From positions 1 to 55,839 of the forward strand of contig DASXMM010000425.1 in NCBI GenBank assembly GCA_036495665.1: 55,839 bases of DNA, in the 5' to 3' direction. The notes under the pieces are model-generated. The model was not told the DNA's origin. It was given only the letters and a program-made list of their open reading frames with translations, and made no database searches. Positions 2-55,810 of this stretch are shown here, piece by piece. The stretch is from Candidatus Acidiferrum sp. Lineage in GTDB: Bacteria; Acidobacteriota; Terriglobia; Acidiferrales; UBA7541. Each line of letters opens with the position of its first letter. Position 1 is the first letter of the stretch. A program made the translations under genes and the position numbers.

Positions 2-835
2 GTGGGGGCGCTGAGTGGGTTCAGCGGGAGCGTGAGTTTAAGTGTGAGCGGATTGCCGACCGGGGCGACAGGGACATTTAGTCCGACGTCCATCAGTCCG
101 GGGGCGAGTTCGACGCTAACGGTGACGACGGGGACGACGACCCCAGCAGGAAGTCCGACGGTGACGGTGACGGGGACGAGCGGGACGCTGAGTCACACAG
201 CGACAGTGACGCTGACGGTAACGGCGATGGGTGGGGGCACTGGGAATCCGATCAGTATTAATTTTGTGGGCAGCGGAACAGCGATGGCGGCGACGGAGAC
301 CGCAGGGGTAGTGGCGGAGAGTAACTGGAACCAGGAGCAGGGAGCGAGCAGCAGCACGGCGCTGGGGTTGGTGGATGATACAGGGAGCGCCACGACGGCC
401 AGCGTGACGTGGAAGGCAGACAATGTGTGGGTGCTGCCGATCACGGACCAGCCAGGGAATGTGCGGATGATGAGAGGGTATTTGGACACGGGGAGGGGAG
501 ATACGACAACGGTGACGGTGAGCGGACTGCCCTCGAGTGCGAATGGTTATACGGTGTACGTATACGCGGACGGGGACAACAAGAGTGCGAGCCGGACGGG
601 GGTGTATCAGGTAAGCGGGACGGGGATCACGACGACGAGCATCAGTCTGACGGACCTGCCGAACACCAATTTTAGCGGGACGTTCACGCAGGCGACGAGC
701 AGCAGCCCGGATGGGAACTATGTGGTGTTCACGATACCGAATGTGAGCGGGTTCACATTGTCGGCGATCCCGAGCACGGCCTCGGACGGGACCCAGCGGG
801 CGCCGCTGAATGGGATCCAGATTGTGCCGAACTGA
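2..835 (+). CDS. C-terminal part of a large Ser/Thr/Gly-rich surface protein (Ig-like domain plus beta-sandwich domain); 5' end lies outside the window
   Basis: Open frame from the window edge. Ig-like strand pattern GFSGSVSLSVSGLP...STLTVTT...TPAGSPTVTVTGTSG...HTATVTLTV, then a domain ISINFVG...SNWN...RGYLD...YVY...GNYVVF...NGIQIVPN*. Strong, uniform codon bias. Confidence 0.8.
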   Translation: MGALSGFSGSVSLSVSGLPTGATGTFSPTSISPGASSTLTVTTGTTTPAGSPTVTVTGTSGTLSHTATVTLTVTAMGGGTGNPISINFVGSGTAMAATETAGVVAESNWNQEQGASSSTALGLVDDTGSATTASVTWKADNVWVLPITDQPGNVRMMRGYLDTGRGDTTTVTVSGLPSSANGYTVYVYADGDNKSASRTGVYQVSGTGITTTSISLTDLPNTNFSGTFTQATSSSPDGNYVVFTIPNVSGFTLSAIPSTASDGTQRAPLNGIQIVPN

Positions 836-838
836 GTA

Positions 839-3800
839 TCAAGGCGCTGGAATTGGACTCGTGGCTCGTGGAGTGATGTCCCACTTGGGGCTGGCTGTCG
901 CAAAGTCTGCACCGGGTGCGTTGTTCACGCAGCCAAGTGCATTTTGGGCTGATCGCAGAGTGTTGTAAGCGCTCGCTCCGCTGTACCCTCCCTGTGCACT
1001 GGTGATGGTATAGAAATACGACATTGCAGCCATATCCTCACCCGTATACCATTCATCGGGATTCTGGGCCCCACACGCAGGCCATGTGGTAGGCTGGAAG
1101 GCATAGAAAGCCTGATCCTCCGCCCACGAGGTGATCTCATTGCCGCTCGCATCGAGCGTGGGAAAAACGTAGTCCGAGAGGTGGTAGATATTGGAAGCCG
1201 GGTTAAGGGCTTCGTTGATGAAATGGTTCGCTACGTAACCCAAAATCGTGCAGCTTCCCGGACAATATCCCAAGTCGTTGATCCATCCGACTACGACGGC
1301 AGAGTACGCATTTTGAAAATTTGAATTGCCGTCTTGTGGGGCGTTAGAGAACTGCGAAGTTGGACAAGGAGATGATGTATTTCCAAGGCAAAGAGGAGAG
1401 TTCGCGGCATAACCGTTCGGACCAACCGCAGGGCCGTGGGTCCATGCGCCTAGCGGGGTTCCCGCAGCCGAAAGATTGCTGACTCGCGCCGTGTTTCCGT
1501 AGGTCCACGCAGTGTTGTACGAGCTACCCAAATCGTTCGGTACCGTGTGGACGCCCTCCCAGACAGCAATGTTCGCTCGGAGTTTGTCTTCGAGATACGC
1601 TTTCTCGGGCGACCCGTCCACGGCGATGAAGGCCCCTAGGAAGTTCTCTCTCGCCATCCAGTCCGTACCGCGCTCCTGGTCGATGTACCAATAGCCGGCC
1701 GAGGCCATCCGAAGCGCGGAGTTCCCGGTGGATTGCGTACAAGCACGAGAGCCAGGCGAGGCGGCCAGCGCGTAGGCCGCTTGCATCAGCTGTTCCTCAT
1801 AGTAGGCGTACTGTCCGCTCATCAGATACGCCGTGTAGGCAAGATTAGGCCAGTGTGAGGTGTCCAATTCGTCGGTTCCCCAAACACCGGTGTCTTGTCC
1901 CGTGCCGAAATTGATCCAATCAGCCGGATAACTGTTGTTGCAGCTCTGCGCCGTCGTATCGAGAAGGCTGACTTGGGTTCGCGCATTAATCGAAACTATC
2001 CGGCCTTCCGTCTGTATGTTTCCTGAGACTCCTGAATTGTCGAATGTTTGCCCGTGGCCGGCGTTCGTGTCAGCCTCGCGGTAAAAATACGGTATGGCAT
2101 TGCCGAGATCGGCGTTTCCTAATGTCACCGGAAGCATCGTCGGATCTTGCGACATCAGCGTGATGATGTCCCACGTCGGAAGGGGGCCGTGGTATTCCGC
2201 CGCCCCTGTGGCGTTCATCCCACCTTGATTCGGACCCGGATAGAAACCGGCGCCGTTCGCGTTGCCCGCGAGGCTCCGATTCGTTGAAGCGAACGACGTT
2301 GCTTCGCTTGATATTTTGCTCGCCGCGATTTTCAGGTTTGGATCCCAGTGCGGCGTGAATTTTGTCTCCGATAGATAAGGCCAGTTTTGGTTGATATGCA
2401 CTGTCGACCCGCACGAATAGGCACTTCCCGCTCCGGCACCGTTGATGCAGAAGGACCTGTGCCAACGCGAGCGCGTGATGTGTGTAAACGAGGCATTCGT
2501 GAACTCGGTTACGGGATTCGCGTTTCCCCCCGTTAGAACGACACTGTACACTTGGTCCCGCGCCGAATTAGAAGGAGTTGAAGAGGCCCATGAGTTTTCC
2601 AGCGTGTAACCAAGTTGCACCAGACCGCCTTGCGGGTAGAACCATGCCTCAAATATGGGATGGAGCGGATTGCCTGTTCCGCCGTCCGTGTTCACGTCGA
2701 AGCTGCGAGCGGAGCGGTCCTCAAGAATGACTGCCGTAACGATCGGACCCTTTAGCCAGTAAGTGCACTCGTATTTGCCGCCATCTGGGTCGCTTCCTGG
2801 GTCTTGGCAGGAGCCAGCCGCAGTCAAGATCGCTCGCGCACTGATCGCGTGGCTCGCCGTGCCGGTCAGCTGAATCTTGCCATCGAAATTGTACGTCGTG
2901 GCCAACATATCGGACTGAGCCAGAAACCCGGTGTTATTTCCCGTAGTCTGATTCGCAAAGGAAACGACCGCCGAGCCATTCGCTGGGATGCTGGGAATCA
3001 CAAAGCTGACGATCGCAAACTTCAAGGAACCGTCCGGCCATCGGTTCTTGACGTCGCACTGGGTTAGCACGGCCGTCCCGGCAACCGAAGCTTGTGCAAA
3101 ATTTGCTATTTCGCCTTGTACGAACGCCCGCGAGATCGAAATGGCGCGGTTCGTTTGCCCCGAACCGGAGGCGTCCGATATCGTAACGTCGTCCCCCGCT
3201 GGCGGTGGTGGTGGCGCACCTGCCTGCGACACCGTTACGTTCACGTTGCTCGACGTCGCGCTATTTCCTGATTTGTCCGTGGCTTTCGCAGCCAGCACAT
3301 GCCCGCCGTTACTTGCCGTTGTCGTATTCCACGACACGGCGTAGGGACTTGTCGTGTCCGCAGTGCCTAGATTCGCGCCATCCAGCAAAAACTGCACCGA
3401 CGCGACTCCCGCACTTGCGGTTGCGCTCGCTGTAACTGAGATCGTGCCGGAGACCGTCGCTCCTGAGCTGGGAGAAGTGATGGACACTGACACTGTCGGT
3501 TGGCTGGTGGTGTTATTTACCTTGATCGAGATAGCCGCGCTGGTGGCTTTCTTGTTTGAGGTGTCCGTTGCTACCGCAGTCAATGAGTGCGCGCCATTGG
3601 TCAGCGTCGTTGTAACCAAAGACGCCGAATAGGGCGCCGTCGTATCCGCCGCCCCGAAGTTAGCTCCATCAACTTGGAACTGGACGCTGGCTACACCCGC
3701 GCTGTCGGAGGCTGTGCCCGTGACGCTGATGGTTCCTGAAACCGTGGCTCCCGAAGCTGGTGAGGTGATCGAAACTGTCGGAGCCGTCGTATTCACCGTT

Positions 3801-3928
3801 CCTGGCTTACTCGTCGAACCGGTCAGTCCAGCGCAGGCCGCACTGAGCATAGCCAGTGGGAAGACCACCAGCCAAAAGCCGCCCATCATTTTATTTGTCA
3901 GTCGCGTCAGCAAGCCGCCTGGAATCAT
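839..3928 (-). CDS. Large secreted/lipoprotein-like surface protein: two bacterial Ig-like (Big_7-type) repeats plus a ~780-aa domain of unknown function
   Basis: Hydrophobic N-terminus ending LSAAC|AGL. Repeats VSITSP.SGATVSGTI.V...A....GVASVQF.(V/L)DG...G.H.L.A.A.D. Pro linker APPPPPA. Start placed at ATG 3928 after GAGGA; the ORF track starts at 3976. Confidence 0.8.
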   Translation of the reverse strand: MIPGGLLTRLTNKMMGGFWLVVFPLAMLSAACAGLTGSTSKPGTVNTTAPTVSITSPASGATVSGTISVTGTASDSAGVASVQFQVDGANFGAADTTAPYSASLVTTTLTNGAHSLTAVATDTSNKKATSAAISIKVNNTTSQPTVSVSITSPSSGATVSGTISVTASATASAGVASVQFLLDGANLGTADTTSPYAVSWNTTTASNGGHVLAAKATDKSGNSATSSNVNVTVSQAGAPPPPPAGDDVTISDASGSGQTNRAISISRAFVQGEIANFAQASVAGTAVLTQCDVKNRWPDGSLKFAIVSFVIPSIPANGSAVVSFANQTTGNNTGFLAQSDMLATTYNFDGKIQLTGTASHAISARAILTAAGSCQDPGSDPDGGKYECTYWLKGPIVTAVILEDRSARSFDVNTDGGTGNPLHPIFEAWFYPQGGLVQLGYTLENSWASSTPSNSARDQVYSVVLTGGNANPVTEFTNASFTHITRSRWHRSFCINGAGAGSAYSCGSTVHINQNWPYLSETKFTPHWDPNLKIAASKISSEATSFASTNRSLAGNANGAGFYPGPNQGGMNATGAAEYHGPLPTWDIITLMSQDPTMLPVTLGNADLGNAIPYFYREADTNAGHGQTFDNSGVSGNIQTEGRIVSINARTQVSLLDTTAQSCNNSYPADWINFGTGQDTGVWGTDELDTSHWPNLAYTAYLMSGQYAYYEEQLMQAAYALAASPGSRACTQSTGNSALRMASAGYWYIDQERGTDWMARENFLGAFIAVDGSPEKAYLEDKLRANIAVWEGVHTVPNDLGSSYNTAWTYGNTARVSNLSAAGTPLGAWTHGPAVGPNGYAANSPLCLGNTSSPCPTSQFSNAPQDGNSNFQNAYSAVVVGWINDLGYCPGSCTILGYVANHFINEALNPASNIYHLSDYVFPTLDASGNEITSWAEDQAFYAFQPTTWPACGAQNPDEWYTGEDMAAMSYFYTITSAQGGYSGASAYNTLRSAQNALGCVNNAPGADFATASPKWDITPRATSPIPAP

Positions 3929-4277
3929 GAGCAAGTCCTCGCCGTAACCGGAGTATGTGTTTTCGAGCAGCAGCAAACAGGAGACCGCTCTTCGGAGGCT
4001 CTTACCGCCCCGCTTAGAGAGTAGAAACTCCGTAGTCGATTGAAAACTGACCTAAAGGACAGTTTTGGGCCAGCCTTACCGGATACACCATGCGAGCCTA
4101 CGAAAATCGATAAAATCGGCCAAACTGGCGGTAAATGTAGCCCGCGCTGTCATTGGCAATAAACTTACGGAAGTGTGGAAACGATTTCCCTCGCATCAGA
4201 CCGTTCCAACCGTGACTGATACACCTGCCGATAAGTACAACAAAACAAGACGGATGGCGTCTGACATCTACCAATAT

Positions 4278-6614
4278 TTAGCGATTGAAGCGCAAATACC
4301 AACAGTTATTGAACGGGTCGTTGCAAAGGACCGCCACGTCCAGCACAGGATCATATGCGAAGTGACCGAAGGTACCCGCATCGCCGCTGGGCAATGGGGT
4401 GCTCTGCGGATAGTCCGTACCCTGCGTCGAGCCGTAAGTCTCCGAAGTGCAAGTCCAAGTCGTTGGATCAATGTACCAAATTGCATTGCCAGAGTTGGGG
4501 TAGATAGCTACGCGCTTGCCAACTGGGTCCCAGAAGGCGCCCATATACTGGGGATTAGCATTCGAGCCCCCTATCAAGTTCGCGCAACCCGTGGTCGCCG
4601 GTTGGTTGATTGTAAAATTACTGCCGGTGCATGCGGGCGGATTGCTGCACGCTACGTTGATGTAAAGAAGTCCTTCTTGAGGACTGCTCGACTGCGGGCC
4701 GATGAGAATCAGGTACTTGTCGATGGGGTCTAGCACTGCCGTCGAGTGATAGCCGGTTCCATCGCTCGTCTCTATCGTGAGCGTGTTATTGGCCGGGTTA
4801 TACCACTCCAACCCACTCTGGTTTTGGGTCCACACTCCCTGCGTGTTGGGGTCATAGGATGCCATGCTCCCCACTCCATAAATGTTCATATAAGCGTTGT
4901 TATTCGCTGGATTGCCGACCGGAGTCCAGTTCGGATTGCACCCTTGTTGGTTCGTTGTGGTATTTGGAGCGCAGGTGTAGAGCACTGAACTCATTGACAA
5001 TAACCAAGCGTTGCTTCCCGCATTGCCGTTCGGAGATGTTGCTCCGCCAAACTCGGTCATCTTGTCATAGCCCGGAATGTATACGGTTGTGTTGTACGTA
5101 TGAACCGACCCTGGCGTCGTGGTCTGCGTTGGAGTGCATCCGCTGAGAAAATTGCAACCTGGCAGCCCAAGAACAGTTGAAACGGAGCCCGAGCTATTGA
5201 AGCTGCAGATCGCCCCGTTACCCTCTGTGACAATGCTGCCTGCCGGACCCGCCGAAGGGCAGGTAAGCGGGTCTGCGGAATGATCCAGGTGGAACATGGG
5301 CGTCGGAGCAGACGTATTCACTAGGGAAAGCTCCAGGGAAAACACGTCGTTACCCCAGTAGTGCTCGTGGCCCCCGCCATACAGAATCAGGCGGTGACGA
5401 GCGGTATCGTATGCACCGCTGTTGGAATCCTCCAGAATGTTGTAGCACTGCGATGTGAATCCAAAGCCGTAGCTCGCATAGGAGGAGTTCAGGTTATTTG
5501 GGAAATTGTCTGGATCCGTATACGCGGCGTTGTTCTGCGCTCCTCCTCCGCAAAGCGCCGTGGAGGGAATCACATGCCAGCCCGGAACGGAGCTAAGACC
5601 AGACCCCACTCCCGAGTTGTTGACAATCACGACCGCGCTGGCTATACCCGGCTGTTCCCCGCTTCCGTTCGCGGTGCCCACTGCCGTGAGTGTGTGTGGG
5701 CCATCCGCCACGGTTGTCGTGTTCCAGGACTGCGAATAGGGCGACGCAACATCAGCACCGCCCAAATCTGTGCCGTCCACTTGGAATTGCACATTCGCAA
5801 CGCCGCTGGTATCCGAAGCTGTCGCGGTTACTGTGATCGTTCCCGAGACTGTGGTACCCGCTAGAGGCGAAGTAATGGTTACGGCCGGTTCGTTGACCGT
5901 AACAGCGACCCCCGCGCTCGTGGCCGCGTTCCCGGCTGTGTCTTTCGCCACCGCCGTCAGCGTGTGACTGCCGTTCGTCAGCGTTGCCGTGTTCAGAGAA
6001 TAGGTGTACGGCGCCGTCGTGCCCGCCGCGCCCACATTTGCTCCATCCACGCGGAACTGCACGCTTGCCACGCCTAGGTTGTCGCTCGCATTCGCAGCAA
6101 CCGTGATTGTGCCGGATATCCTCGCCCCATTCGCCGGAGATGTGATCGAAACCGTCGGCGGAGTCGTGTCTGTCGTGTTCTCTACGGAGACCTTAACAGT
6201 AGTGCTCGTACCAACATTACCGGATGCGTCCTTCGCGGTCGCCTTCAGTGAATGAGTGCCATTACCGGACTTGGTCGTATTCCAAACATAGGTGTACGGG
6301 GCAGACGTTACAGGATTGCCTGCGTTGGCGCCGTCAAGCTCGAACTGCACGCTAACCACACTGACCTTGTCGGTCGCGGTTGCGGAAACCGTAACGCTTC
6401 CCTTCAACGTGGCACCACTTGCCGGCGCACCAATGGAAACCACGGGCGGTGTGCCGCCCGTATCCGCAGGTTTCGTGCTATTGCCCGAGACCAAACCCGC
6501 GCATCCCACGCTGAACAAGCCCAGGCTCAAACCCCCTAAGAGCAAAAATGCCTGTTTAGCCCCAAATTCGGTCGTTCCTCTTCTAATCCGGAAGCCTCTC
6601 ATCTTTCTCCTCAA
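4278..6614 (-). CDS. Secreted/lipoprotein-like surface protein: three Big_7-type Ig repeats plus a Kelch-like beta-propeller
   Basis: Basic N-region, hydrophobic stretch, FSVGC|AGL. Three VSI.SP..GA..SG.I.V.A.A.D repeats. Propeller signatures LILYGGGH..YWGND, HTYN..VYIP, FGG, TFGHFAY. Confidence 0.8.
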   Translation of the reverse strand: MRRKMRGFRIRRGTTEFGAKQAFLLLGGLSLGLFSVGCAGLVSGNSTKPADTGGTPPVVSIGAPASGATLKGSVTVSATATDKVSVVSVQFELDGANAGNPVTSAPYTYVWNTTKSGNGTHSLKATAKDASGNVGTSTTVKVSVENTTDTTPPTVSITSPANGARISGTITVAANASDNLGVASVQFRVDGANVGAAGTTAPYTYSLNTATLTNGSHTLTAVAKDTAGNAATSAGVAVTVNEPAVTITSPLAGTTVSGTITVTATASDTSGVANVQFQVDGTDLGGADVASPYSQSWNTTTVADGPHTLTAVGTANGSGEQPGIASAVVIVNNSGVGSGLSSVPGWHVIPSTALCGGGAQNNAAYTDPDNFPNNLNSSYASYGFGFTSQCYNILEDSNSGAYDTARHRLILYGGGHEHYWGNDVFSLELSLVNTSAPTPMFHLDHSADPLTCPSAGPAGSIVTEGNGAICSFNSSGSVSTVLGLPGCNFLSGCTPTQTTTPGSVHTYNTTVYIPGYDKMTEFGGATSPNGNAGSNAWLLSMSSVLYTCAPNTTTNQQGCNPNWTPVGNPANNNAYMNIYGVGSMASYDPNTQGVWTQNQSGLEWYNPANNTLTIETSDGTGYHSTAVLDPIDKYLILIGPQSSSPQEGLLYINVACSNPPACTGSNFTINQPATTGCANLIGGSNANPQYMGAFWDPVGKRVAIYPNSGNAIWYIDPTTWTCTSETYGSTQGTDYPQSTPLPSGDAGTFGHFAYDPVLDVAVLCNDPFNNCWYLRFNR

Positions 6615-49094: not shown

Positions 49095-50684
49095 GTGGCC
49101 ACTCAATCCCGCATGTTCGAAGGCGCGCCGTCAGACGTACTCGTGGAAACCGCCGCCCCTCGCATCACCCTCCGCAACTCCTTCGCCCATCCCTATGACT
49201 CCGCCATCGCCGCCGCCCGCATCTGCTACGCCGACCATCTCGTTGCTCCCGAAGAAATCACCGACAAGCAGCGCCTCAACATCGGCGCCGCCACCTTCAA
49301 CAGCGGCCACCATACCGTCTTTCAGCACGCCACTTTCGAATTCGGCCTGGAAAACGTCAGCCGCCAGTTCGTCTGGTCCTTCCTGCACGCCCACCCGTTC
49401 TACAATTCCGAGCAGCAAAGCCAGCGTTACGTTCGCATGGACCGCGTCCAGGCCTACGTCCCGCGCGTCGACCTCTACTTCAACGAATCCGCGAAGCAAA
49501 TCTACGAACAAGCCATTGCCCGCGCCTGGAGCTACTACCGGGAACTCTCCACCATCCTGATCGCTGATGCCCGTGCCATTCTCGCTGACATCTGGCACGT
49601 TGGCCCCAATTCCAATCCCAAGCACATCCAGAAAATTGAGCGTTCCGCCGAAAAGCGTTCCATCGAAATCGCCCGCTACGTTCTTCCACTCGCCGCTTTC
49701 ACCACCATGGTGCACACCGTCTCCGGCATCGTCCTGCATCGCCTCTGGCGCATGAGCGCGGCCACGGACACACCCAGCGAGTCTCGCGCTGTAATCGGCG
49801 CAATGGTCGAAGAAGTCAAAAAAATCGATTCGCAATTTTTCGAGCGCTTTGGCACGGAACCGCTGGAAGAAATTCCCGAACTCAAATCAACGCAATCCCA
49901 CGTCTCGCAAGGCGAACAATTCGCCCGCGAATTCGACGGCAGGTTGGAAGGAAAAACCTCGAAGCTCCTCGACTACTCCCCCAACGCCGAAAGCATCATC
50001 GCCGATTCCTACCGCGCCGTCCTCGGCCTGACGCTATCCCAATCCAGCGACGCGGAAGCTATCGATCGCCTCCTGAATCCCGCAAAAAATCTCTATCGCC
50101 TCGAAACTCTCAACGTCGGCGTCCACGCCCCCATGATGCGCGCCCTGCAACACGCCAATTACACCTTCGCCAAGAAAATCAGCCACACCGCCGACTCCCA
50201 GGACCAGCGCCACCGCATGGTTCCCGGCTCCCGTCCACTCCTCACGCTAGCCGACACCCGCGAACCCGACTACATCACCCCCGCCCTCCTCGCGCAAAAT
50301 CCCCGCGCCAAAGAACTCTACGACCGCGCCATGCACGACGCTTGGTCCGCCAAAAACAAGCTCCTCGATGAAGGCGTCTCCCCCGAAATCGCTCTCTACC
50401 TTCTCCCGAACGCCAAATCCATCCGCCTCGTCGAGTCCGGCTCCCTCCTCCACCTCCTCCACAAATGGACCATGCGCACCTGCTTCAACGCCCAGGAAGA
50501 AATCTACGCCGCCAGCATGGACGAAGTTGCCCAACTCCGCGAAGTCCATCCCCAATTCGCCAAGTATATCGGCCCCCCCTGCCATCTCCGCGCCAACATC
50601 ACCACCCCCATCTGCACCGAAGGCTCCCACTTCTGCGGCATAAAAGTCTGGCTCGACTTCCCCAACACCCCCCGCCGCATCTGA
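49095..50684 (+). CDS. thyX: FAD-dependent thymidylate synthase-like protein with two tandem ThyX domains
   Basis: Domain 1: AARICY, GHHTVFQH..F.F...VSR, SEQQSQRY, EIARYVLP. Domain 2: LQH..YTF, QRHR, EIALYLLPN, R.C..AQEEI, GPPC...CTEG..FCG. Confidence 0.75.
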   Translation: MATQSRMFEGAPSDVLVETAAPRITLRNSFAHPYDSAIAAARICYADHLVAPEEITDKQRLNIGAATFNSGHHTVFQHATFEFGLENVSRQFVWSFLHAHPFYNSEQQSQRYVRMDRVQAYVPRVDLYFNESAKQIYEQAIARAWSYYRELSTILIADARAILADIWHVGPNSNPKHIQKIERSAEKRSIEIARYVLPLAAFTTMVHTVSGIVLHRLWRMSAATDTPSESRAVIGAMVEEVKKIDSQFFERFGTEPLEEIPELKSTQSHVSQGEQFAREFDGRLEGKTSKLLDYSPNAESIIADSYRAVLGLTLSQSSDAEAIDRLLNPAKNLYRLETLNVGVHAPMMRALQHANYTFAKKISHTADSQDQRHRMVPGSRPLLTLADTREPDYITPALLAQNPRAKELYDRAMHDAWSAKNKLLDEGVSPEIALYLLPNAKSIRLVESGSLLHLLHKWTMRTCFNAQEEIYAASMDEVAQLREVHPQFAKYIGPPCHLRANITTPICTEGSHFCGIKVWLDFPNTPRRI

Positions 50685-50896: not shown

Positions 50897-53800
50897 ATGA
50901 TGCGCCGAAACTCCCATCGCGGGTTTTGCTGTGGAGTGATGGCGCACGGTTTATTTCGGCGCTCTCGCTCGCTGCGTTTCCTCGTTCTTGTCACTGCTTT
51001 GGCTGGCAAACTCGCCCTGGCGCAAACCCATCCCGCCTCTCGCATCACGGAGCCAGTAGATGACCGCGTTCGTGTCATCCTGAAAGGGAACGTTTACCCC
51101 CTCGCCCAGGCCCGGTACGACCGAGGCCCCGTTTCTGCTTCTTTTCCAGTCGAGCGCATGTTACTGATGCTCAAGCGCTCTCCCGAGCGGGAGACCGCGC
51201 TCCAGCAGTTCCTTCAGGACGCGCATACGCAAGGTAGCCCGAACTATCGCAAGTGGCTCACGCCCCAAAAGTTCGGCGAACTCTACGGACCAGATGATTC
51301 AGAGATTGCGTCCGTAACTGGGTGGCTCCGGGAGCACGGTTTCTCGGTCGCTCGCGTTACCAAGGGCAAAACAGCAGTCGAGTTCTCAGGCTCAGCTGGC
51401 CAGCTCCGCGAATCCTTCAGCACCGAAATACACACTTATTTTGTCGACGGTGAAGAACATCACGCCAACAACCGCGATCCGCAAATTCCGGCTGCCCTCG
51501 CGCCCGTGATTGCCGGCATTACTCCGATGAATGACTTTCGGCCTCGGCCGCAAATTAGGGTTCTTGGAAATGCCTTATACAACCCCAAGACCCATGTGGT
51601 GACACCCCAATGGACAATTAACAATTCCCCACTCGCCTTGGCTCTTGCTCCCGGCGATTTCGCCGCTCAATACGATCTGAATCCTCTTTATGCGTCCGGC
51701 ATAAACGGCGCCGGCGTGACCATCGGCATTATTGGCGCTTCTAACGTCTATCCTGACGTCGTCGCCGACTACCGTTCGTTCTTTGGCCTGCCAGCAGGCA
51801 CACTCAATATCGTCATCGATGGACGCGATCCTGGACCAAGCGCCTCAGTGGATCGCGGGAACTGGGCTGAACTCGAGTCCTTTCTCGACGTGGAACTCTC
51901 CGGAGCGGTCGCTCCCGGCGCGACCATAAATCTGTATACCGCTGCCGACACGACGGTTCAGGCTGGCTTGTTGCTAGCCGCGCAGCGCGCTGTCGATGAC
52001 GACGTCGCTGCGGTTCTCAGCACCAGCTACGCCGAGTGCGAACAAGCCCTCGGTTCTTCTGGCAATCAGTTTTGGGCCGCGCTTTGGGAACAGGCTGCTG
52101 CGGAGGGACAAACCTCCTTCGTCTCCTCAGGCGATAACGGTTCCGCGGGTTGCGACGACTTCAATGCGGGGACGCCCGCCGCTTCAGGCCTCGCCGTCAA
52201 CGGCTTCTCTTCCACGTCCTGGAATATATCCGTCGGAGGAACGGATTTCTTCTATAGCACCTACGCCGGAACTGCGGCTTCGCAGAATACGGAACTGGCG
52301 ACCTACTGGAACTTGACGCCAACCGGCCTCATGTCACCCACCACCTCGCTCCTAAAACCGATTCCAGAGCAGCCCTGGAACCAAGCCTTCGGCCTGGATC
52401 TTTACAACGGTGGCGTTTATAACCCGAATACACCGACCATCGTCGCCGGCAGCGGCGGCGCAAGCAGCTGCATTTCTGGCGTGCAGTCCTCCGACGGCTC
52501 ATTCGCTTCTTGCACGAAGGGTTATGCCAAACCGGCTTGGCAAACCGGCAAAGGGGTTCCAGCCGACGGAGTGCGCGATCTTCCCGACGTCTCACTTTTC
52601 GCGGCTGACGGCGAGAATGCTAGCTTCTATCCCATCTGCCTGCCTGGGGAAGGCTGCACCGGGCTGAATCCAGCCTACATGGAATTCGCTGCCGTCGGCG
52701 GCACGTCGACTTCCTCGCCGTCAATGGCCGGCATTATGGCCCTCGTCAACCAGAAGTTTGGCCGTCAGGGGCAAGCGAATTTTATCCTTTATCCGCTCGC
52801 TGTCCAGCATCCCACGGCTTTTCACGACATTGCAATCGGCAGCAACAACGTCCCATGCCAGCAGGGCACGCCTGACTGCACCCTGAGCGCGCTTACCGAC
52901 AACACGAAGGGTTTCTACACTCTTGGTGAATATTACGCGAGCGCGGGCTACGACCAGGCCACCGGCCTCGGCAGCGTGGACGCGAATTTGCTTGTCCAGT
53001 ATTGGAACTCGCTGACGTTTACCCCCAGCAACACTTCGCTGAACCTTAGCCAGACGACTTTTACCCACGGGACACCCATCAATGTCAGCGTGGCCGTGAC
53101 CGGCAATGGGGGCACTCCAACAGGTGACGTCGGCTTGCTTCCTACCGAGAGTCCGGCCGCAGCCAATATCAGCCTGAACGAACTCACCTTGCAGAGCGGC
53201 GCGGCCTCGGCCACTGTAAGCAATTTTCCAGGCGGCCAATACCAGCTCACGGCCAGATACACAGGCGACACCGTTTTTGCTTCAAGCAGTTCTACTCCTG
53301 TTACGCTCAACGTCGCTCCTGAAACCAGCACCGTCTCCGTCACCGGAAGCTACTGGAACAACATCACCAGCTCGTTTTCACCTATTTCGAGCGGCGCCAG
53401 CTATCCTTATGGCACCTACATAGCGTTTGATGCCCTGCCGATTGGCGCTAATTCCCCGCAAGGTGGCTCTGACGGTATCGCCACTGGAACGATTACTTTT
53501 ACGGATACGGCCGGCACGTCCACGGTTAATTCCGGCGCTTTAAGCTTGAACGCGAAAGGGATTGCCGAATGGATCCCTACTCTCTCGTTTCCGATTGGTC
53601 CAACCGCTGTGGGCGCCAGCTATTCCGGCGACGCCAGTTTCCGCCCGTCTACCAGCTCGACGCCGCTCTCGTTCACCATCACTAAAGCACCCACCGTATC
53701 CTTTTTGGATGCGAAGCCGTCTCCCGTGGCTCTGGGTTCGGCCACCACGCTTGAAGTGCAAGTAAGCAATCAGTTTTCAGGCCCGGCGTGCGCAGCAAGT

Positions 53801-54946
53801 GCCACTTGCACTTTCTTCCCTTCATCTCCCGCATCTCCAACAGGCAGCGTCACCTTTTCCTTCGGGAATACGACCCTGGGAACGGTGTCCCTCGCTCCCC
53901 CCCTCAACAGTCTTTTTATATCCTATGCTACGCTGAACATTGCGAGCTTGCCCTTGGGAACCGACACCGTAACCGCGGCCTACGGCGGCGATTCCAACTA
54001 CAGCTCCGCCACTGCTTCTTTTAACGTCGTTGTCGAGCAACCAGCTACCCTCTCGGCCACTGCCAACCCTAGCTCCATCAACCAGGCGGAATTCACTCAA
54101 GTCAGCGCCGCCGTCACTGGCTTGAGCGGGCTGCCTGTTCCTACGGGAACCGTGACTTTCTCTACCACCGGACCTGGCTCCTCCTGGAGTGATTCGGAGC
54201 CGCTCAAGAACGGCTCGGCGATCTCGAGGGCTCTCACGGGCGGTCTTTTCTCTCCTCCCGTCAACGGCCAGATTGCAGTCCCTATTAATGTCTCTTACTC
54301 AGGGGACTCCACTTATGGTCCAGCCAGCGTGACCGCGCCTCTCACTGTAACTCAGGGCAATCTTTCACCTTTCTCCGTTAGCGCCACTCCAGTCACCATA
54401 GCGACTCCCGGAGCAACGACCGGCAACTCCTCCACCATCACAATTACCCCCTCCAACGGATTTACTGGTGCTGTTTATCTCTCTTGCGCGCTCACTTCTA
54501 CCCCGCCGGGAGCAGTGCATCCTCCAACCTGCGCCATTCCGGCTTCGGTAAGCATCCCAGGAACCGCCGCTGTGACGGCAGTGATGGCCATCAACTCCAC
54601 GGCGCCAAGTTCCACCGGACTCTTCAACCCAGCCCCGCGTGGGCCGACGTCGAATATCCCGCTGCCCAATTTGCCAACCTGGTTAGCGGGAGCAGCGCTG
54701 GCCGTCTTGTTGTTCTCGGGATTGTGCCGCCAAAGGCGGCGTACTTTGCGCTTCGCGAGCTTCCTGTTTCCCTTGGCTGTTCTTGGGGGACTCGCTTCCT
54801 GCGGCGGAGGTAGCAGCAATATTACTCCCCCTCCCGTTCCGATTCCTGGCACGACTCCCGGGAGCTACGCGTTTACCGTAGATGCTTCGTTTACCGCGAA
54901 TGGCGTCAGCCAGGCTCAAACTGCCGTGACCGCCACGGTTCAGTAG
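50897..54946 (+). CDS. S53 (sedolisin/kumamolisin-like) protease: pro-domain, catalytic domain, several Ig-like (Big_3) repeats and a C-terminal TM hairpin with lipobox
   Basis: Pro-domain LLMLKRS..RE.AL......SPNYRKWLTP..FG..YG. Catalytic ESFLD, SSGDNG, GGTSTSSP. Ca site GYDQATGLGS. Repeats PTG.V.F...(T/A)A.Y.GD..(F/Y)..S. Start could be ATG 50939. Confidence 0.9.
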   Translation: MMRRNSHRGFCCGVMAHGLFRRSRSLRFLVLVTALAGKLALAQTHPASRITEPVDDRVRVILKGNVYPLAQARYDRGPVSASFPVERMLLMLKRSPERETALQQFLQDAHTQGSPNYRKWLTPQKFGELYGPDDSEIASVTGWLREHGFSVARVTKGKTAVEFSGSAGQLRESFSTEIHTYFVDGEEHHANNRDPQIPAALAPVIAGITPMNDFRPRPQIRVLGNALYNPKTHVVTPQWTINNSPLALALAPGDFAAQYDLNPLYASGINGAGVTIGIIGASNVYPDVVADYRSFFGLPAGTLNIVIDGRDPGPSASVDRGNWAELESFLDVELSGAVAPGATINLYTAADTTVQAGLLLAAQRAVDDDVAAVLSTSYAECEQALGSSGNQFWAALWEQAAAEGQTSFVSSGDNGSAGCDDFNAGTPAASGLAVNGFSSTSWNISVGGTDFFYSTYAGTAASQNTELATYWNLTPTGLMSPTTSLLKPIPEQPWNQAFGLDLYNGGVYNPNTPTIVAGSGGASSCISGVQSSDGSFASCTKGYAKPAWQTGKGVPADGVRDLPDVSLFAADGENASFYPICLPGEGCTGLNPAYMEFAAVGGTSTSSPSMAGIMALVNQKFGRQGQANFILYPLAVQHPTAFHDIAIGSNNVPCQQGTPDCTLSALTDNTKGFYTLGEYYASAGYDQATGLGSVDANLLVQYWNSLTFTPSNTSLNLSQTTFTHGTPINVSVAVTGNGGTPTGDVGLLPTESPAAANISLNELTLQSGAASATVSNFPGGQYQLTARYTGDTVFASSSSTPVTLNVAPETSTVSVTGSYWNNITSSFSPISSGASYPYGTYIAFDALPIGANSPQGGSDGIATGTITFTDTAGTSTVNSGALSLNAKGIAEWIPTLSFPIGPTAVGASYSGDASFRPSTSSTPLSFTITKAPTVSFLDAKPSPVALGSATTLEVQVSNQFSGPACAASATCTFFPSSPASPTGSVTFSFGNTTLGTVSLAPPLNSLFISYATLNIASLPLGTDTVTAAYGGDSNYSSATASFNVVVEQPATLSATANPSSINQAEFTQVSAAVTGLSGLPVPTGTVTFSTTGPGSSWSDSEPLKNGSAISRALTGGLFSPPVNGQIAVPINVSYSGDSTYGPASVTAPLTVTQGNLSPFSVSATPVTIATPGATTGNSSTITITPSNGFTGAVYLSCALTSTPPGAVHPPTCAIPASVSIPGTAAVTAVMAINSTAPSSTGLFNPAPRGPTSNIPLPNLPTWLAGAALAVLLFSGLCRQRRRTLRFASFLFPLAVLGGLASCGGGSSNITPPPVPIPGTTPGSYAFTVDASFTANGVSQAQTAVTATVQ

Positions 54947-55030: not shown

Positions 55031-55810
55031 ATGCTCTCATTCTTGCGCACTGGTCTCCCGCTCATTACCACAGCTTTGCTCTTGGTGCCGCCTTCTTTCG
55101 CCTTTGACACTCCTCTATCTCCCGAAGCCGTTCGCGACGCCTACTTCCTCGGCCAGCACAACGACCAATCCACCCTCTCCTTCTTTTCTCAATACGTTAA
55201 AACTCTCCCCGCCCCCGAGCAGGGCGCCTACATCTCCGAAGTTGAAATCTACACGCCTTACTCCCAAATCATTGAGCGCTCCCGCCGCCGTACCGGCAAT
55301 TACAGCGCCCAGCAAGCCGACCTCGATTACCGCCACAGCCACGACAAACTCTATGTCCGCATTCGCATCAACTTCACCGATACCTACGGCGCTCTTGAGC
55401 TCTATCGTTCCGCGAAGGGCGATCAACAGCTATCCGGCGCCGAGGAGCCTCTTCCCGATTTCTATCGTGACTTTCGCGTCGGTCTTTCTCAACGTTCCGC
55501 CGCGGATCGTGACCGCCCTTCAAGCGAAGCTCAGTGGATTGAACCGATGCGCATCATTCTCCAGCCCTCCTATGCCCAGAACTCAAACCACCTTCCCTTC
55601 ATACCCGAAGACTTCGGCTTTTCCTACTACGCAGGAGCGGATGGCTCCTACGGCTACTCCAGCGCGAACGGCATTGCCTATCCCACCGGCTGGCTCGCCT
55701 GGCTCGAGTATGACGCCAGAGACGTAGCCTCCGACGACGCGACCGTCGAAGTCATCACTACCGACGGCCAGCACGTCTCCGTCCCCTTCGACCTCTCCCG
55801 CCTCCGCTAA
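55031..55810 (+). CDS. Secreted hypothetical protein
   Basis: GAGGTG RBS, signal peptide ending SFA|F, LSPEAVRDAYFLGQ, TPY, terminal VEV.T.DGQ.V...FDL..LR. Strong C-ending codon bias. Confidence 0.75.
   Translation: MLSFLRTGLPLITTALLLVPPSFAFDTPLSPEAVRDAYFLGQHNDQSTLSFFSQYVKTLPAPEQGAYISEVEIYTPYSQIIERSRRRTGNYSAQQADLDYRHSHDKLYVRIRINFTDTYGALELYRSAKGDQQLSGAEEPLPDFYRDFRVGLSQRSAADRDRPSSEAQWIEPMRIILQPSYAQNSNHLPFIPEDFGFSYYAGADGSYGYSSANGIAYPTGWLAWLEYDARDVASDDATVEVITTDGQHVSVPFDLSRLR

What the first reader, a model, noticed from the sequence alone, without database searches (positions are those of the whole stretch)
54367..54946. Split Ig domain with an embedded lipoprotein signal: candidate undescribed C-terminal lipid-anchoring system
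Seen: the last Ig-like domain of the S53 protease begins normally (FSVSATP...STITITP.NGFTGAVYLSC...AVMAINSTA). It is then interrupted by TM1 (WLAGAALAVLLFSGL), a basic cluster (RQRRRTLR), TM2 (FASFLFPLAVLGG) and a canonical lipobox LAS|C (Cys1302, codon at 54800), followed by GGG and a Pro linker. It resumes with the missing strands (GTTPGSYAFTVDAS...AQTAVTATVQ*). The uninterrupted version of this domain is in the same window (ORF 2..835: GFSGSVSLS...STLTVTT-GTTTPAGSPTVTVTGTSG...HTATVTLTV), which pinpoints the insertion to one loop. Established: basic cluster + hydrophobic helix + L-A-S-C is the Lgt/LspA substrate, normally at the N-terminus. Inference: after export, the internal signal is lipidated and cleaved. 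The 48-aa lipopeptide would then complete the Ig fold by strand complementation and tether the ~1250-aa enzyme to a membrane, possibly with a second cut before TM1 to allow transfer to the outer membrane. I know of no characterised sorting system like this.
Basis: partly seen in the sequence, partly recalled or inferred. Interest (0 to 1): 0.78.

Follow-up and report, generated by a model that had tools for sequence, protein, structure and literature searches.

The report
Lipo-invert lipid anchor splitting Ig domain
This exported protease of a likely acidobacterium ends in a real, widespread tail in which two predicted membrane helices and a lipoprotein-type cysteine interrupt its last Ig-like domain; the cysteine is likely lipidated and cut, and the short end-piece is predicted to hold the enzyme at the cell envelope by completing that domain; NCBI already lists this tail as a putative anchor, and I found no paper testing it.

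Summary
Observation confirmed. The 1349-aa S53 protease ends in a split Ig-like domain: N-half, TM1, basic loop, TM2, LAS|C1302, then two closing strands.

It is catalogued: it passes NCBIfam NF058595 'invert_tail, lipo-invert putative C-terminal anchoring domain' (52.1 bits, cut-off 37). This scan reported it on other DNA at least eight times. My searches found no paper on it.

The mechanism is well supported computationally:
- Cys is kept in 118 of 120 tails, always after G/A/S, never followed by Asp.
- AlphaFold plus VIA-align join both halves into one Ig fold; the two pieces in trans score weak support, 0.57 vs 0.00.
- 668 of 720 domain copies are contiguous; all 26 lipobox-split copies are C-terminal.
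- A paralogue carries two extra domains after the Cys and still closes the fold.
- The tail occurs in 65 of 65 genomes of four families, against 3 of 85 others in the class, on many unrelated passengers.

Lipidation, cleavage and the second cut are untested; no dedicated enzyme was found.

The parts
50897..54946 (+). S53 (kumamolisin/sedolisin-like) protease precursor, 1349 aa, the passenger
   Evidence: PF09286 Pro-kuma_activ E 5e-29; PF16640 Big_3_5, 4 stretches
50897..51022 (+). N-terminal export signal, predicted signal peptidase I type (basic, hydrophobic, ALA|Q)
   Evidence: sequence; no SignalP run
51119..51538 (+). Pro-kumamolisin activation propeptide (residues 75-214)
51869..52720 (+). 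S53 catalytic motifs: ExxLD (325-333), SSGDNG (410-416), GGTSxSSP (601-608)
   Evidence: positions; motif assignment recalled from kumamolisin
53042..54364 (+). Stalk of Big_3_5 Ig-like domains (approximate end)
   Evidence: 4 stretches, best at 716-807
54365..54604 (+). N-half of the split Ig-like domain (residues 1157-1236), with the Cys1197/Cys1212 pair (likely disulfide)
   Evidence: 108 of 120 each; pLDDT 87-97
54605..54679 (+). Low-confidence Ser/Thr/Pro linker to TM1; candidate region of a second cut
   Evidence: pLDDT 50-65; 11-41 aa in homologues
54680..54724 (+). TM1, predicted stop-transfer helix
   Evidence: (helix 1261-1279)
54728..54751 (+). Basic loop RQRRRTLR, predicted cytoplasmic
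   Evidence: K+R at least 2 and net positive in 118 of 118
54752..54799 (+). TM2 = h-region and lipobox L-A-S of an internal lipoprotein signal
54800..54802 (+). Cys1302, predicted lipidation site
54803..54847 (+). Gly/Ser/Pro tether after the Cys
54848..54946 (+). Closing beta-hairpin GTTPGSY...VTATVQ and stop; predicted to complete the Ig sandwich
   Evidence: (pLDDT 95-98)
2..220 (+). Intact copy of the same Ig-like domain in ORF 2..835 (reference for the insertion point)

Best explanation
The tail is an internal lipoprotein signal placed inside the last Ig-like domain of an exported protease: the housekeeping Lgt and LspA likely lipidate and cut at Cys1302, and the 48-residue lipopeptide is predicted to stay bound by supplying the domain's last two strands, which would tether the enzyme by its C-terminal end. 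Steps: (1) Sec export by the N-terminal signal (inferred). (2) TM1 stops transfer, the basic loop stays inside and TM2 re-exports the last 48 residues (inferred from the positive-inside rule). (3) The two halves fold into one Ig sandwich on the outer face (predicted). (4) Lgt adds diacylglycerol and LspA cuts S1301|C1302 (inferred from the lipobox; about 0.75). (5) The leftover TM1-TM2 hairpin is trimmed by general membrane proteases, leaving the lipid as sole anchor and letting the folded two-chain protein move outward, possibly through a secretin (inferred; about 0.5). Rationale (inference): S8/S53 proteases shed their N-terminal propeptide, so an ordinary N-terminal lipid would be lost; this design gives a lipid anchor at the far end using standard enzymes.
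For: NCBIfam NF058595 above cut-off. The lipobox fits [LV][ASTVI][GAS]C as given in PMC8689077 (passages). -1 is G/A/S in 118 of 118 and 19 of 19 tails, +2 is Asp in none, and an uncharged run of 12-21 residues precedes the Cys in all. 198 distinct split tails with TM pair and lipobox Cys were found in the pooled sequences; the 6 hydrophobic tails without Cys were intact domains followed by one ordinary C-terminal helix (the set was gathered with tail queries, so it leans towards Cys). AlphaFold gives pLDDT 95-98 for the closing strands; VIA-align matches 98-104 residues over model range 1-193 to single domains (Vpr 8jmw Z 11.8, rmsd 2.2; sialidase 1eut Z 11.4), which the 80-residue N-half cannot supply alone. 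The two pieces in trans score 0.57, best control 0.00, verdict weak support, partner pLDDT at least 69, runs agree in at least 93% of contacts. 668 of 720 domain copies have the halves contiguous; 26 of 26 lipobox-split copies are terminal. Paralogue G000:C432 has two extra domains between Cys and hairpin, and the hairpin is still modelled into the split domain. One LspA in each of 5 carrier genomes examined, so no dedicated copy. Many unrelated passengers. Only 1 of 118 tail carriers had an N-terminal lipobox by my rule.
Against: No experiment; nothing here shows lipid or cleavage. Only 72 of 118 and 9 of 19 tails fit the strict lipobox, although my 34 rough N-terminal lipoprotein candidates of the same genome fit it in only 9. 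No conserved cut motif before TM1: GG near its start in 49 of 118. Rhomboids are in 151 of 151 genomes with no excess in carriers. No secretin passes the canonical GspD cut-off in 5 of 5 carriers tested, and LolA is only a partial hit at a contig end. Scores of 0.60 or under were reached by only 18 of 157 solved complexes and by both mismatches that passed, and halves of one domain can pass by likeness to solved folds.
Confidence: 0.55

Rival explanations
1. Lgt and LspA act, but there is no second cut: the enzyme stays on TM1-TM2 in the inner membrane facing the periplasm, and the lipopeptide only completes and stabilises the last domain.
For: No conserved motif before TM1 and no dedicated protease; TM1 is hydrophobic in homologues (best 15-mer median Kyte-Doolittle 2.19).
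Against: A lipid would be redundant beside two helices, yet the Cys is the single invariant residue. Passengers include long Ig stalks, MBG/YDG adhesin-type repeats and hydrolases typical of cell surfaces (inference).
Confidence: 0.25
2. The Cys is acylated but the chain is never cut; the tail is a covalent membrane hairpin with an extra lipid.
For: Described LspA substrates carry N-terminal signal peptides (PMC8689077 passages); an upstream helix might hinder the enzyme.
Against: -1 is restricted to G/A/S in every tail, the requirement of the lipobox and its scissile bond; splitting an Ig domain around the site makes most sense if the chain is cut (inference).
Confidence: 0.1
3. A dedicated, non-Lgt/LspA system (for example a CPBP/Rce1-like myxosortase analogue) lipidates and cuts the tail.
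For: Sharp lineage restriction; 7 CPBP-family matches in this genome; MYXO-CTERM is cut by such an enzyme (PMC11980579 passages).
Against: In MYXO-CTERM the Cys precedes the helix and the cut is distal to it; here the Cys follows the helix in lipobox register. No recurring processing gene beside the tail genes among the neighbours scanned in 20 fetched regions.
Confidence: 0.07
4. Chance fusion or assembly artefact joining a membrane protein to a small lipoprotein gene.
For: The genome is a fragmented assembly (617 contigs, 74% complete).
Against: Same architecture in 119 of 120 listed proteins and in single-contig genomes with many copies (G190: 15, G229: 8 matches).
Confidence: 0.01

Closest known systems
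NCBIfam NF058595.1 invert_tail, 'lipo-invert putative C-terminal anchoring domain' (release 20.0, June 2026)
   Same: This tail is a full-length member: residues 1227-1349 match profile 2-113 of 113 at 52.1 bits, cut-off 37.
   Different: Nothing in sequence. The model covers only the last strand of the N-half onward and is labelled putative. I saw no curator comment, so whether the split-Ig and strand-complementation reading is on record is unknown.
Standard Sec/SPII lipoproteins (Lgt, LspA, Lnt)
   Same: Basic region, h-region, [LV][ASTVI][GAS]C lipobox and disordered tether (PMC8689077 passages).
   Different: The signal is internal, preceded by another helix and about 1260 exported residues; the lipidated piece is only 35-60 aa in most carriers.
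MYXO-CTERM/myxosortase and GlyGly-CTERM/rhombosortase
   Same: Lineage-restricted, multi-copy C-terminal signals that anchor diverse exported proteins, proteases among them (PMC11980579 and 10.1101/2023.06.07.544157, passages).
   Different: Those have motif, one helix and a basic end, a dedicated protease and a covalent anchor on the passenger. Here there are two helices, the Cys follows the second, a folded element comes after it, and the predicted link is non-covalent.
SEAL (RsgI) and MAIN/GAIN autoproteolytic domains
   Same: A domain cut in a loop whose two products stay joined through a shared beta-sheet, tethering a passenger (abstracts of PMC10556640 and 10.64898/2026.05.12.724683, plus passages of the latter).
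   Different: They cut themselves and are anchored by a helix or a sortase; here the loop holds a membrane hairpin and the predicted cutter is LspA.

Membership tests
NCBIfam NF058595 invert_tail | Score above the curated cut-off over the whole model | tested here: met
   52.1 bits (full protein) and 57.2 bits (tail) vs 37; profile 2-113 of 113
NCBIfam NF058595 invert_tail | C-terminal position on an exported protein | tested here: met
   match ends at residue 1349; N-terminal signal-like stretch by inspection
C-terminal sorting signals in general | Several copies per genome on unrelated passengers, lineage-restricted | tested here: met
   4 proteins over cut-off in this genome, up to 15 matches in relatives; S53, S8, NHL, FG-GAP, SBBP, Kelch, phosphoesterase, beta-helix and MBG passengers
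C-terminal sorting signals in general | A dedicated, co-distributed processing enzyme | tested here: inconclusive
   rhomboid counts do not track the tail; single LspA in 5 of 5 carriers; CPBP paralogues not profiled
Lgt/LspA lipoprotein | Basic region, hydrophobic helix, lipobox with invariant Cys | tested here: met
Lgt/LspA lipoprotein | Signal peptide at the N-terminus of the precursor | tested here: not met
   Cys is residue 1302 of 1349; it works like a lipoprotein signal but the precursor is not a standard prolipoprotein
Lgt/LspA lipoprotein | Diacylglyceryl-Cys and globomycin-sensitive cleavage | not testable with these tools
   needs labelling and mass spectrometry
MYXO-CTERM | Cys motif before a single terminal helix and basic tail; hit to TIGR03901 | tested here: not met
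   no MYXO-CTERM hit in the NCBIfam scan at E 0.1; Cys follows TM2
GlyGly-CTERM | GG motif, one helix, basic C-terminus | tested here: not met
   no NCBIfam hit; GG near TM1 in 49 of 118 homologues and absent here; 64 residues follow the basic cluster
SEAL/MAIN autoproteolytic domains | SEA- or GAIN-like fold with self-cleavage site | tested here: inconclusive
   the model matches Ig-like sandwiches; self-cleavage not testable
S53 sedolisin/kumamolisin proteases | Activation propeptide and Glu-Asp-Ser catalytic motifs | tested here: met
   PF09286; motifs located, assignment recalled

The most novel reading that the evidence does not exclude
Terriglobia have a surface-display route of a kind not yet characterised: a self-made two-chain complex in which an internal lipoprotein signal is lipidated and cut by Lgt/LspA, the membrane hairpin is discarded, and the lipopeptide clips onto its own passenger by completing an Ig fold. 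This gives C-terminal lipid anchoring without any sortase, allows a second set of domains on the lipidated chain (as in G000:C432), and may allow force- or exchange-driven release.
Probability: 0.4. Interest if true: 0.78.

Novelty: new member of a known kind. Interest (0 to 1): 0.42.

Why it matters
If right, it is a distinct solution to C-terminal anchoring that reuses the universal lipoprotein enzymes. It would explain how a major group of soil bacteria keeps proteases, hydrolases and adhesins on the cell, show that Lgt/LspA accept a signal deep inside a polytopic precursor, and offer a portable tag for displaying proteins that need a free N-terminus. The signal itself is already catalogued, so the value lies in the testable mechanism, not in the locus.

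Tried and rejected
Literature: 'lipo-invert' gave 0 papers. Searches on Acidobacteria with lipobox or sorting signal, internal or C-terminal lipobox, and NCBIfam anchoring domains listed nothing on this tail; most hits were judged from listings only, the library lacks most subscription papers, and bioRxiv supplements were not seen. 'Acidobacter' and 'invert' do not occur in the main text of the myxosortase preprint.

Dedicated rhomboid: not supported by counts. 151 of 151 genomes have rhomboids; the tail-rich family f2 has 1-4, non-carriers 2-6. Dedicated LspA: single copy in 5 of 5 carriers; Lgt 1-3 matches.

Conserved partner gene: in 20 fetched regions the neighbours scanned were housekeeping genes or further carriers; ppk recurs in 3 regions of one genus.

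Stand-alone lipopeptide genes: the short tail ORFs in L053-L058 start inside the N-half or follow an upstream fragment, and look like broken or contig-edge genes.

Foldseek against PDB gave no match at E 0.001 or better. The search of 50% representatives (36,521 hits at E 0.001) is dominated by intact repeats and was not used as a count of tails. GspD: no secretin over the cut-off, so the export route is open.

Full report
Observation. ORF 50897-54946 (+) encodes 1349 aa: a signal-like N-terminus ending ALA|Q, a pro-kumamolisin domain, S53 catalytic motifs and four Big_3_5 matches (motif assignment recalled). The intact domain is in ORF 2..835.

What it is. Residues 1227-1349 match NCBIfam NF058595.1 'invert_tail, lipo-invert putative C-terminal anchoring domain' over profile positions 2-113 at 52.1 bits, cut-off 37. 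I saw the name only. A full-text search for 'lipo-invert' gave 0 papers, and seven related searches listed nothing on it. The scan's own index shows eight earlier notes on the same tail in other genomes, all filing it under this model. I had found the match before that look-up.

Conservation. A search with residues 1157-1349 gave 259 proteins at E 0.001 or better among 7993 candidates scored; 120 were listed. In an alignment of this tail with the 119 non-self ones, Cys1302 is in column in 118 of 120; one miss is a one-column shift and one protein ends within TM1. G1318, T1319, G1322 and Y1324 are kept in 114-118 of 120, and the pair Cys1197/Cys1212 in 108 each. Among the 118, position -1 is G, A or S in all, +2 is never Asp, 13-20 uncharged residues precede the Cys, the loop is net basic in all, and the piece from the Cys on is 35-60 aa. 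The strict lipobox fits 72 of 118. For comparison, 9 of my 34 rough N-terminal lipoprotein candidates in this genome fit the strict pattern; that list was picked on G/A/S at -1 and includes false positives. In two diverse alignments of 19 and 35 tails (19 rows shared) the Cys is the only invariant column.

Distribution and passengers. This genome has four proteins over the cut-off (C45, C425, C109, C432) and a fifth cut by a contig end (C452). Their passengers are NHL repeats, S53, a propeller with ASH domains, and S8. In the phylum sample 19 of 201 genomes pass the cut-off: this one, all 17 of the same class, and one partial match. In the class sample the tail is in 21 of 21, 22 of 22, 21 of 21 and 1 of 1 genomes of four families, and in 3 of 85 genomes of nine others; 0 of 14 control genomes pass. 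Kin are not independent, so this may reflect one origin. Named relatives are mostly Acidobacteriaceae, Terriglobales, Ca. Sulfotelmatobacter and Ca. Acidoferrales, so the host is likely Terriglobia. Passengers elsewhere include Kelch, SBBP/DUF7948, FG-GAP, phosphoesterase, beta-helix, VPS10 and MBG/YDG repeats (40 ORFs scanned from 20 regions). By my rule 1 of 118 carriers had an N-terminal lipobox, 81 a hydrophobic signal-like start and 36 none detected.

The split domain. AlphaFold on a 69-row alignment gives seven strands in residues 1-77 of the tail and two in 166-192, at pLDDT 87-98, with two helices between at lower confidence. VIA-align matches 98-104 residues across model range 1-193 to single Ig-like domains (Vpr 8jmw Z 11.8, rmsd 2.2, 104 aligned; sialidase 1eut Z 11.4). 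The N-half has only about 80 residues, so the closing strands must be part of the match; I did not see coordinates. Foldseek found nothing at E 0.001. Folded as two chains (residues 1157-1242 and 1302-1349), the pair scored 0.57 against a best control of 0.00. The verdict is weak support: 116 of 157 solved complexes and 2 of 215 mismatches reach the mark, but only 18 solved ones and both mismatches do so at 0.60 or under. Runs agreed in at least 93% of contacts, partner pLDDT was at least 69, and halves of one fold can pass by likeness. In 151 repeat-rich proteins, 720 domain copies could be paired: 668 have the halves contiguous, 26 have a helix pair with lipobox between them and all 26 are terminal, 25 have long gaps without a lipobox (probably missed hairpins) and 1 is intermediate. 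Pooling all fetched sequences gave 198 distinct split tails with a lipobox Cys; 184 end in a detected hairpin, and most of the 14 others show a divergent one by eye. A telling variant, G000:C432, has two further Ig-like domains between the Cys and the hairpin. Its model still has the first 72 and last 25 residues at pLDDT 97-98, matching single domains over range 1-384 (the alignment put the hairpin in register, which favours this). P0223 is similar. The post-Cys piece thus looks like a lipoprotein in its own right, and C542 encodes an ordinary N-terminal lipoprotein that starts CGGGSS and carries the intact domain.

Machinery. The genome has one Lgt, one LspA, two rhomboids, seven CPBP matches, a partial LolA and two secretin matches. 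Four other carriers have one LspA each and 1-3 Lgt matches. Rhomboids are in 151 of 151 genomes with no excess in carriers. No secretin passes the GspD cut-off in five carriers. GG near the start of TM1 is seen in 49 of 118. No processing gene recurs beside the tail genes among the neighbours scanned.

Mechanism. Shown: architecture, conservation, family membership, spread. Predicted: the closing hairpin completes the Ig fold. Inferred: topology, lipidation by Lgt and cleavage by LspA (about 0.75), then loss of the helix pair and outward transport (about 0.5). The argument for the second cut is that a lipid would be redundant beside two helices, yet the Cys is the one invariant residue; the argument against is that no motif or enzyme was found. 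A C-terminal lipid suits proteases that shed an N-terminal propeptide (inference). Rivals: cut once and kept in the inner membrane (0.25), acylated but uncut (0.1), a dedicated CPBP-type system (0.07), artefact (0.01).

Comparison. Member of NF058595. It works like a lipoprotein signal but is not a standard prolipoprotein (PMC8689077, passages). It differs from MYXO-CTERM and GlyGly-CTERM in order of parts and in the non-covalent link (PMC11980579 and 10.1101/2023.06.07.544157, passages). It resembles SEAL and MAIN domains in keeping cut products together through a beta-sheet (PMC10556640, abstract and opening; 10.64898/2026.05.12.724683, abstract and passages).

Verdict. Real and mechanistically attractive, but a new member of a catalogued, untested family that this scan has met repeatedly. 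Interest 0.42; 0.78 if the full two-chain anchoring route is shown.

Noticed in passing
G000:C432:18389-20917 (+), loci L006/L007: S8 subtilase whose lipo-invert tail has two extra Ig-like domains (about 200 aa) between the lipobox Cys and the closing hairpin; P0223 has one extra domain there.
   Followed up: yes
G000:C542:9497-10492 (+), locus L010: Ordinary N-terminal lipoprotein starting CGGGSS...PPPP followed by an intact copy of the same Ig domain; a possible source of the internal signal by rearrangement.
   Followed up: partly
G000:C452:10854-14291 (+), locus L008, and L080: Tails in which a different domain follows the Cys; both lie at contig ends, so the closing hairpin is not seen.
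   Followed up: no
window 55031-55810 (+): 259-aa ORF with a signal-like start directly after the protease; no Pfam or NCBIfam match.
   Followed up: partly
window 49095-50684 (+): Tandem (double-domain) ThyX thymidylate synthase upstream of the protease.
   Followed up: no
L064, L065, L066, L067, L070, L071: Tail-bearing genes often sit in tandem clusters of two or three, beside ppk in three genomes of one genus.
   Followed up: partly
G000:C390 and C264; C8-C609 list: Near-duplicate genes on different contigs (CPBP on C390/C264; lipoproteins on C168/C546 and C34/C311) suggest strain mixture or duplication in the assembly.
   Followed up: no
window 839-6614 (-): Two large Big_7 Ig-repeat proteins (1045 and 778 aa) opposite ORF 2..835.
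   Followed up: no
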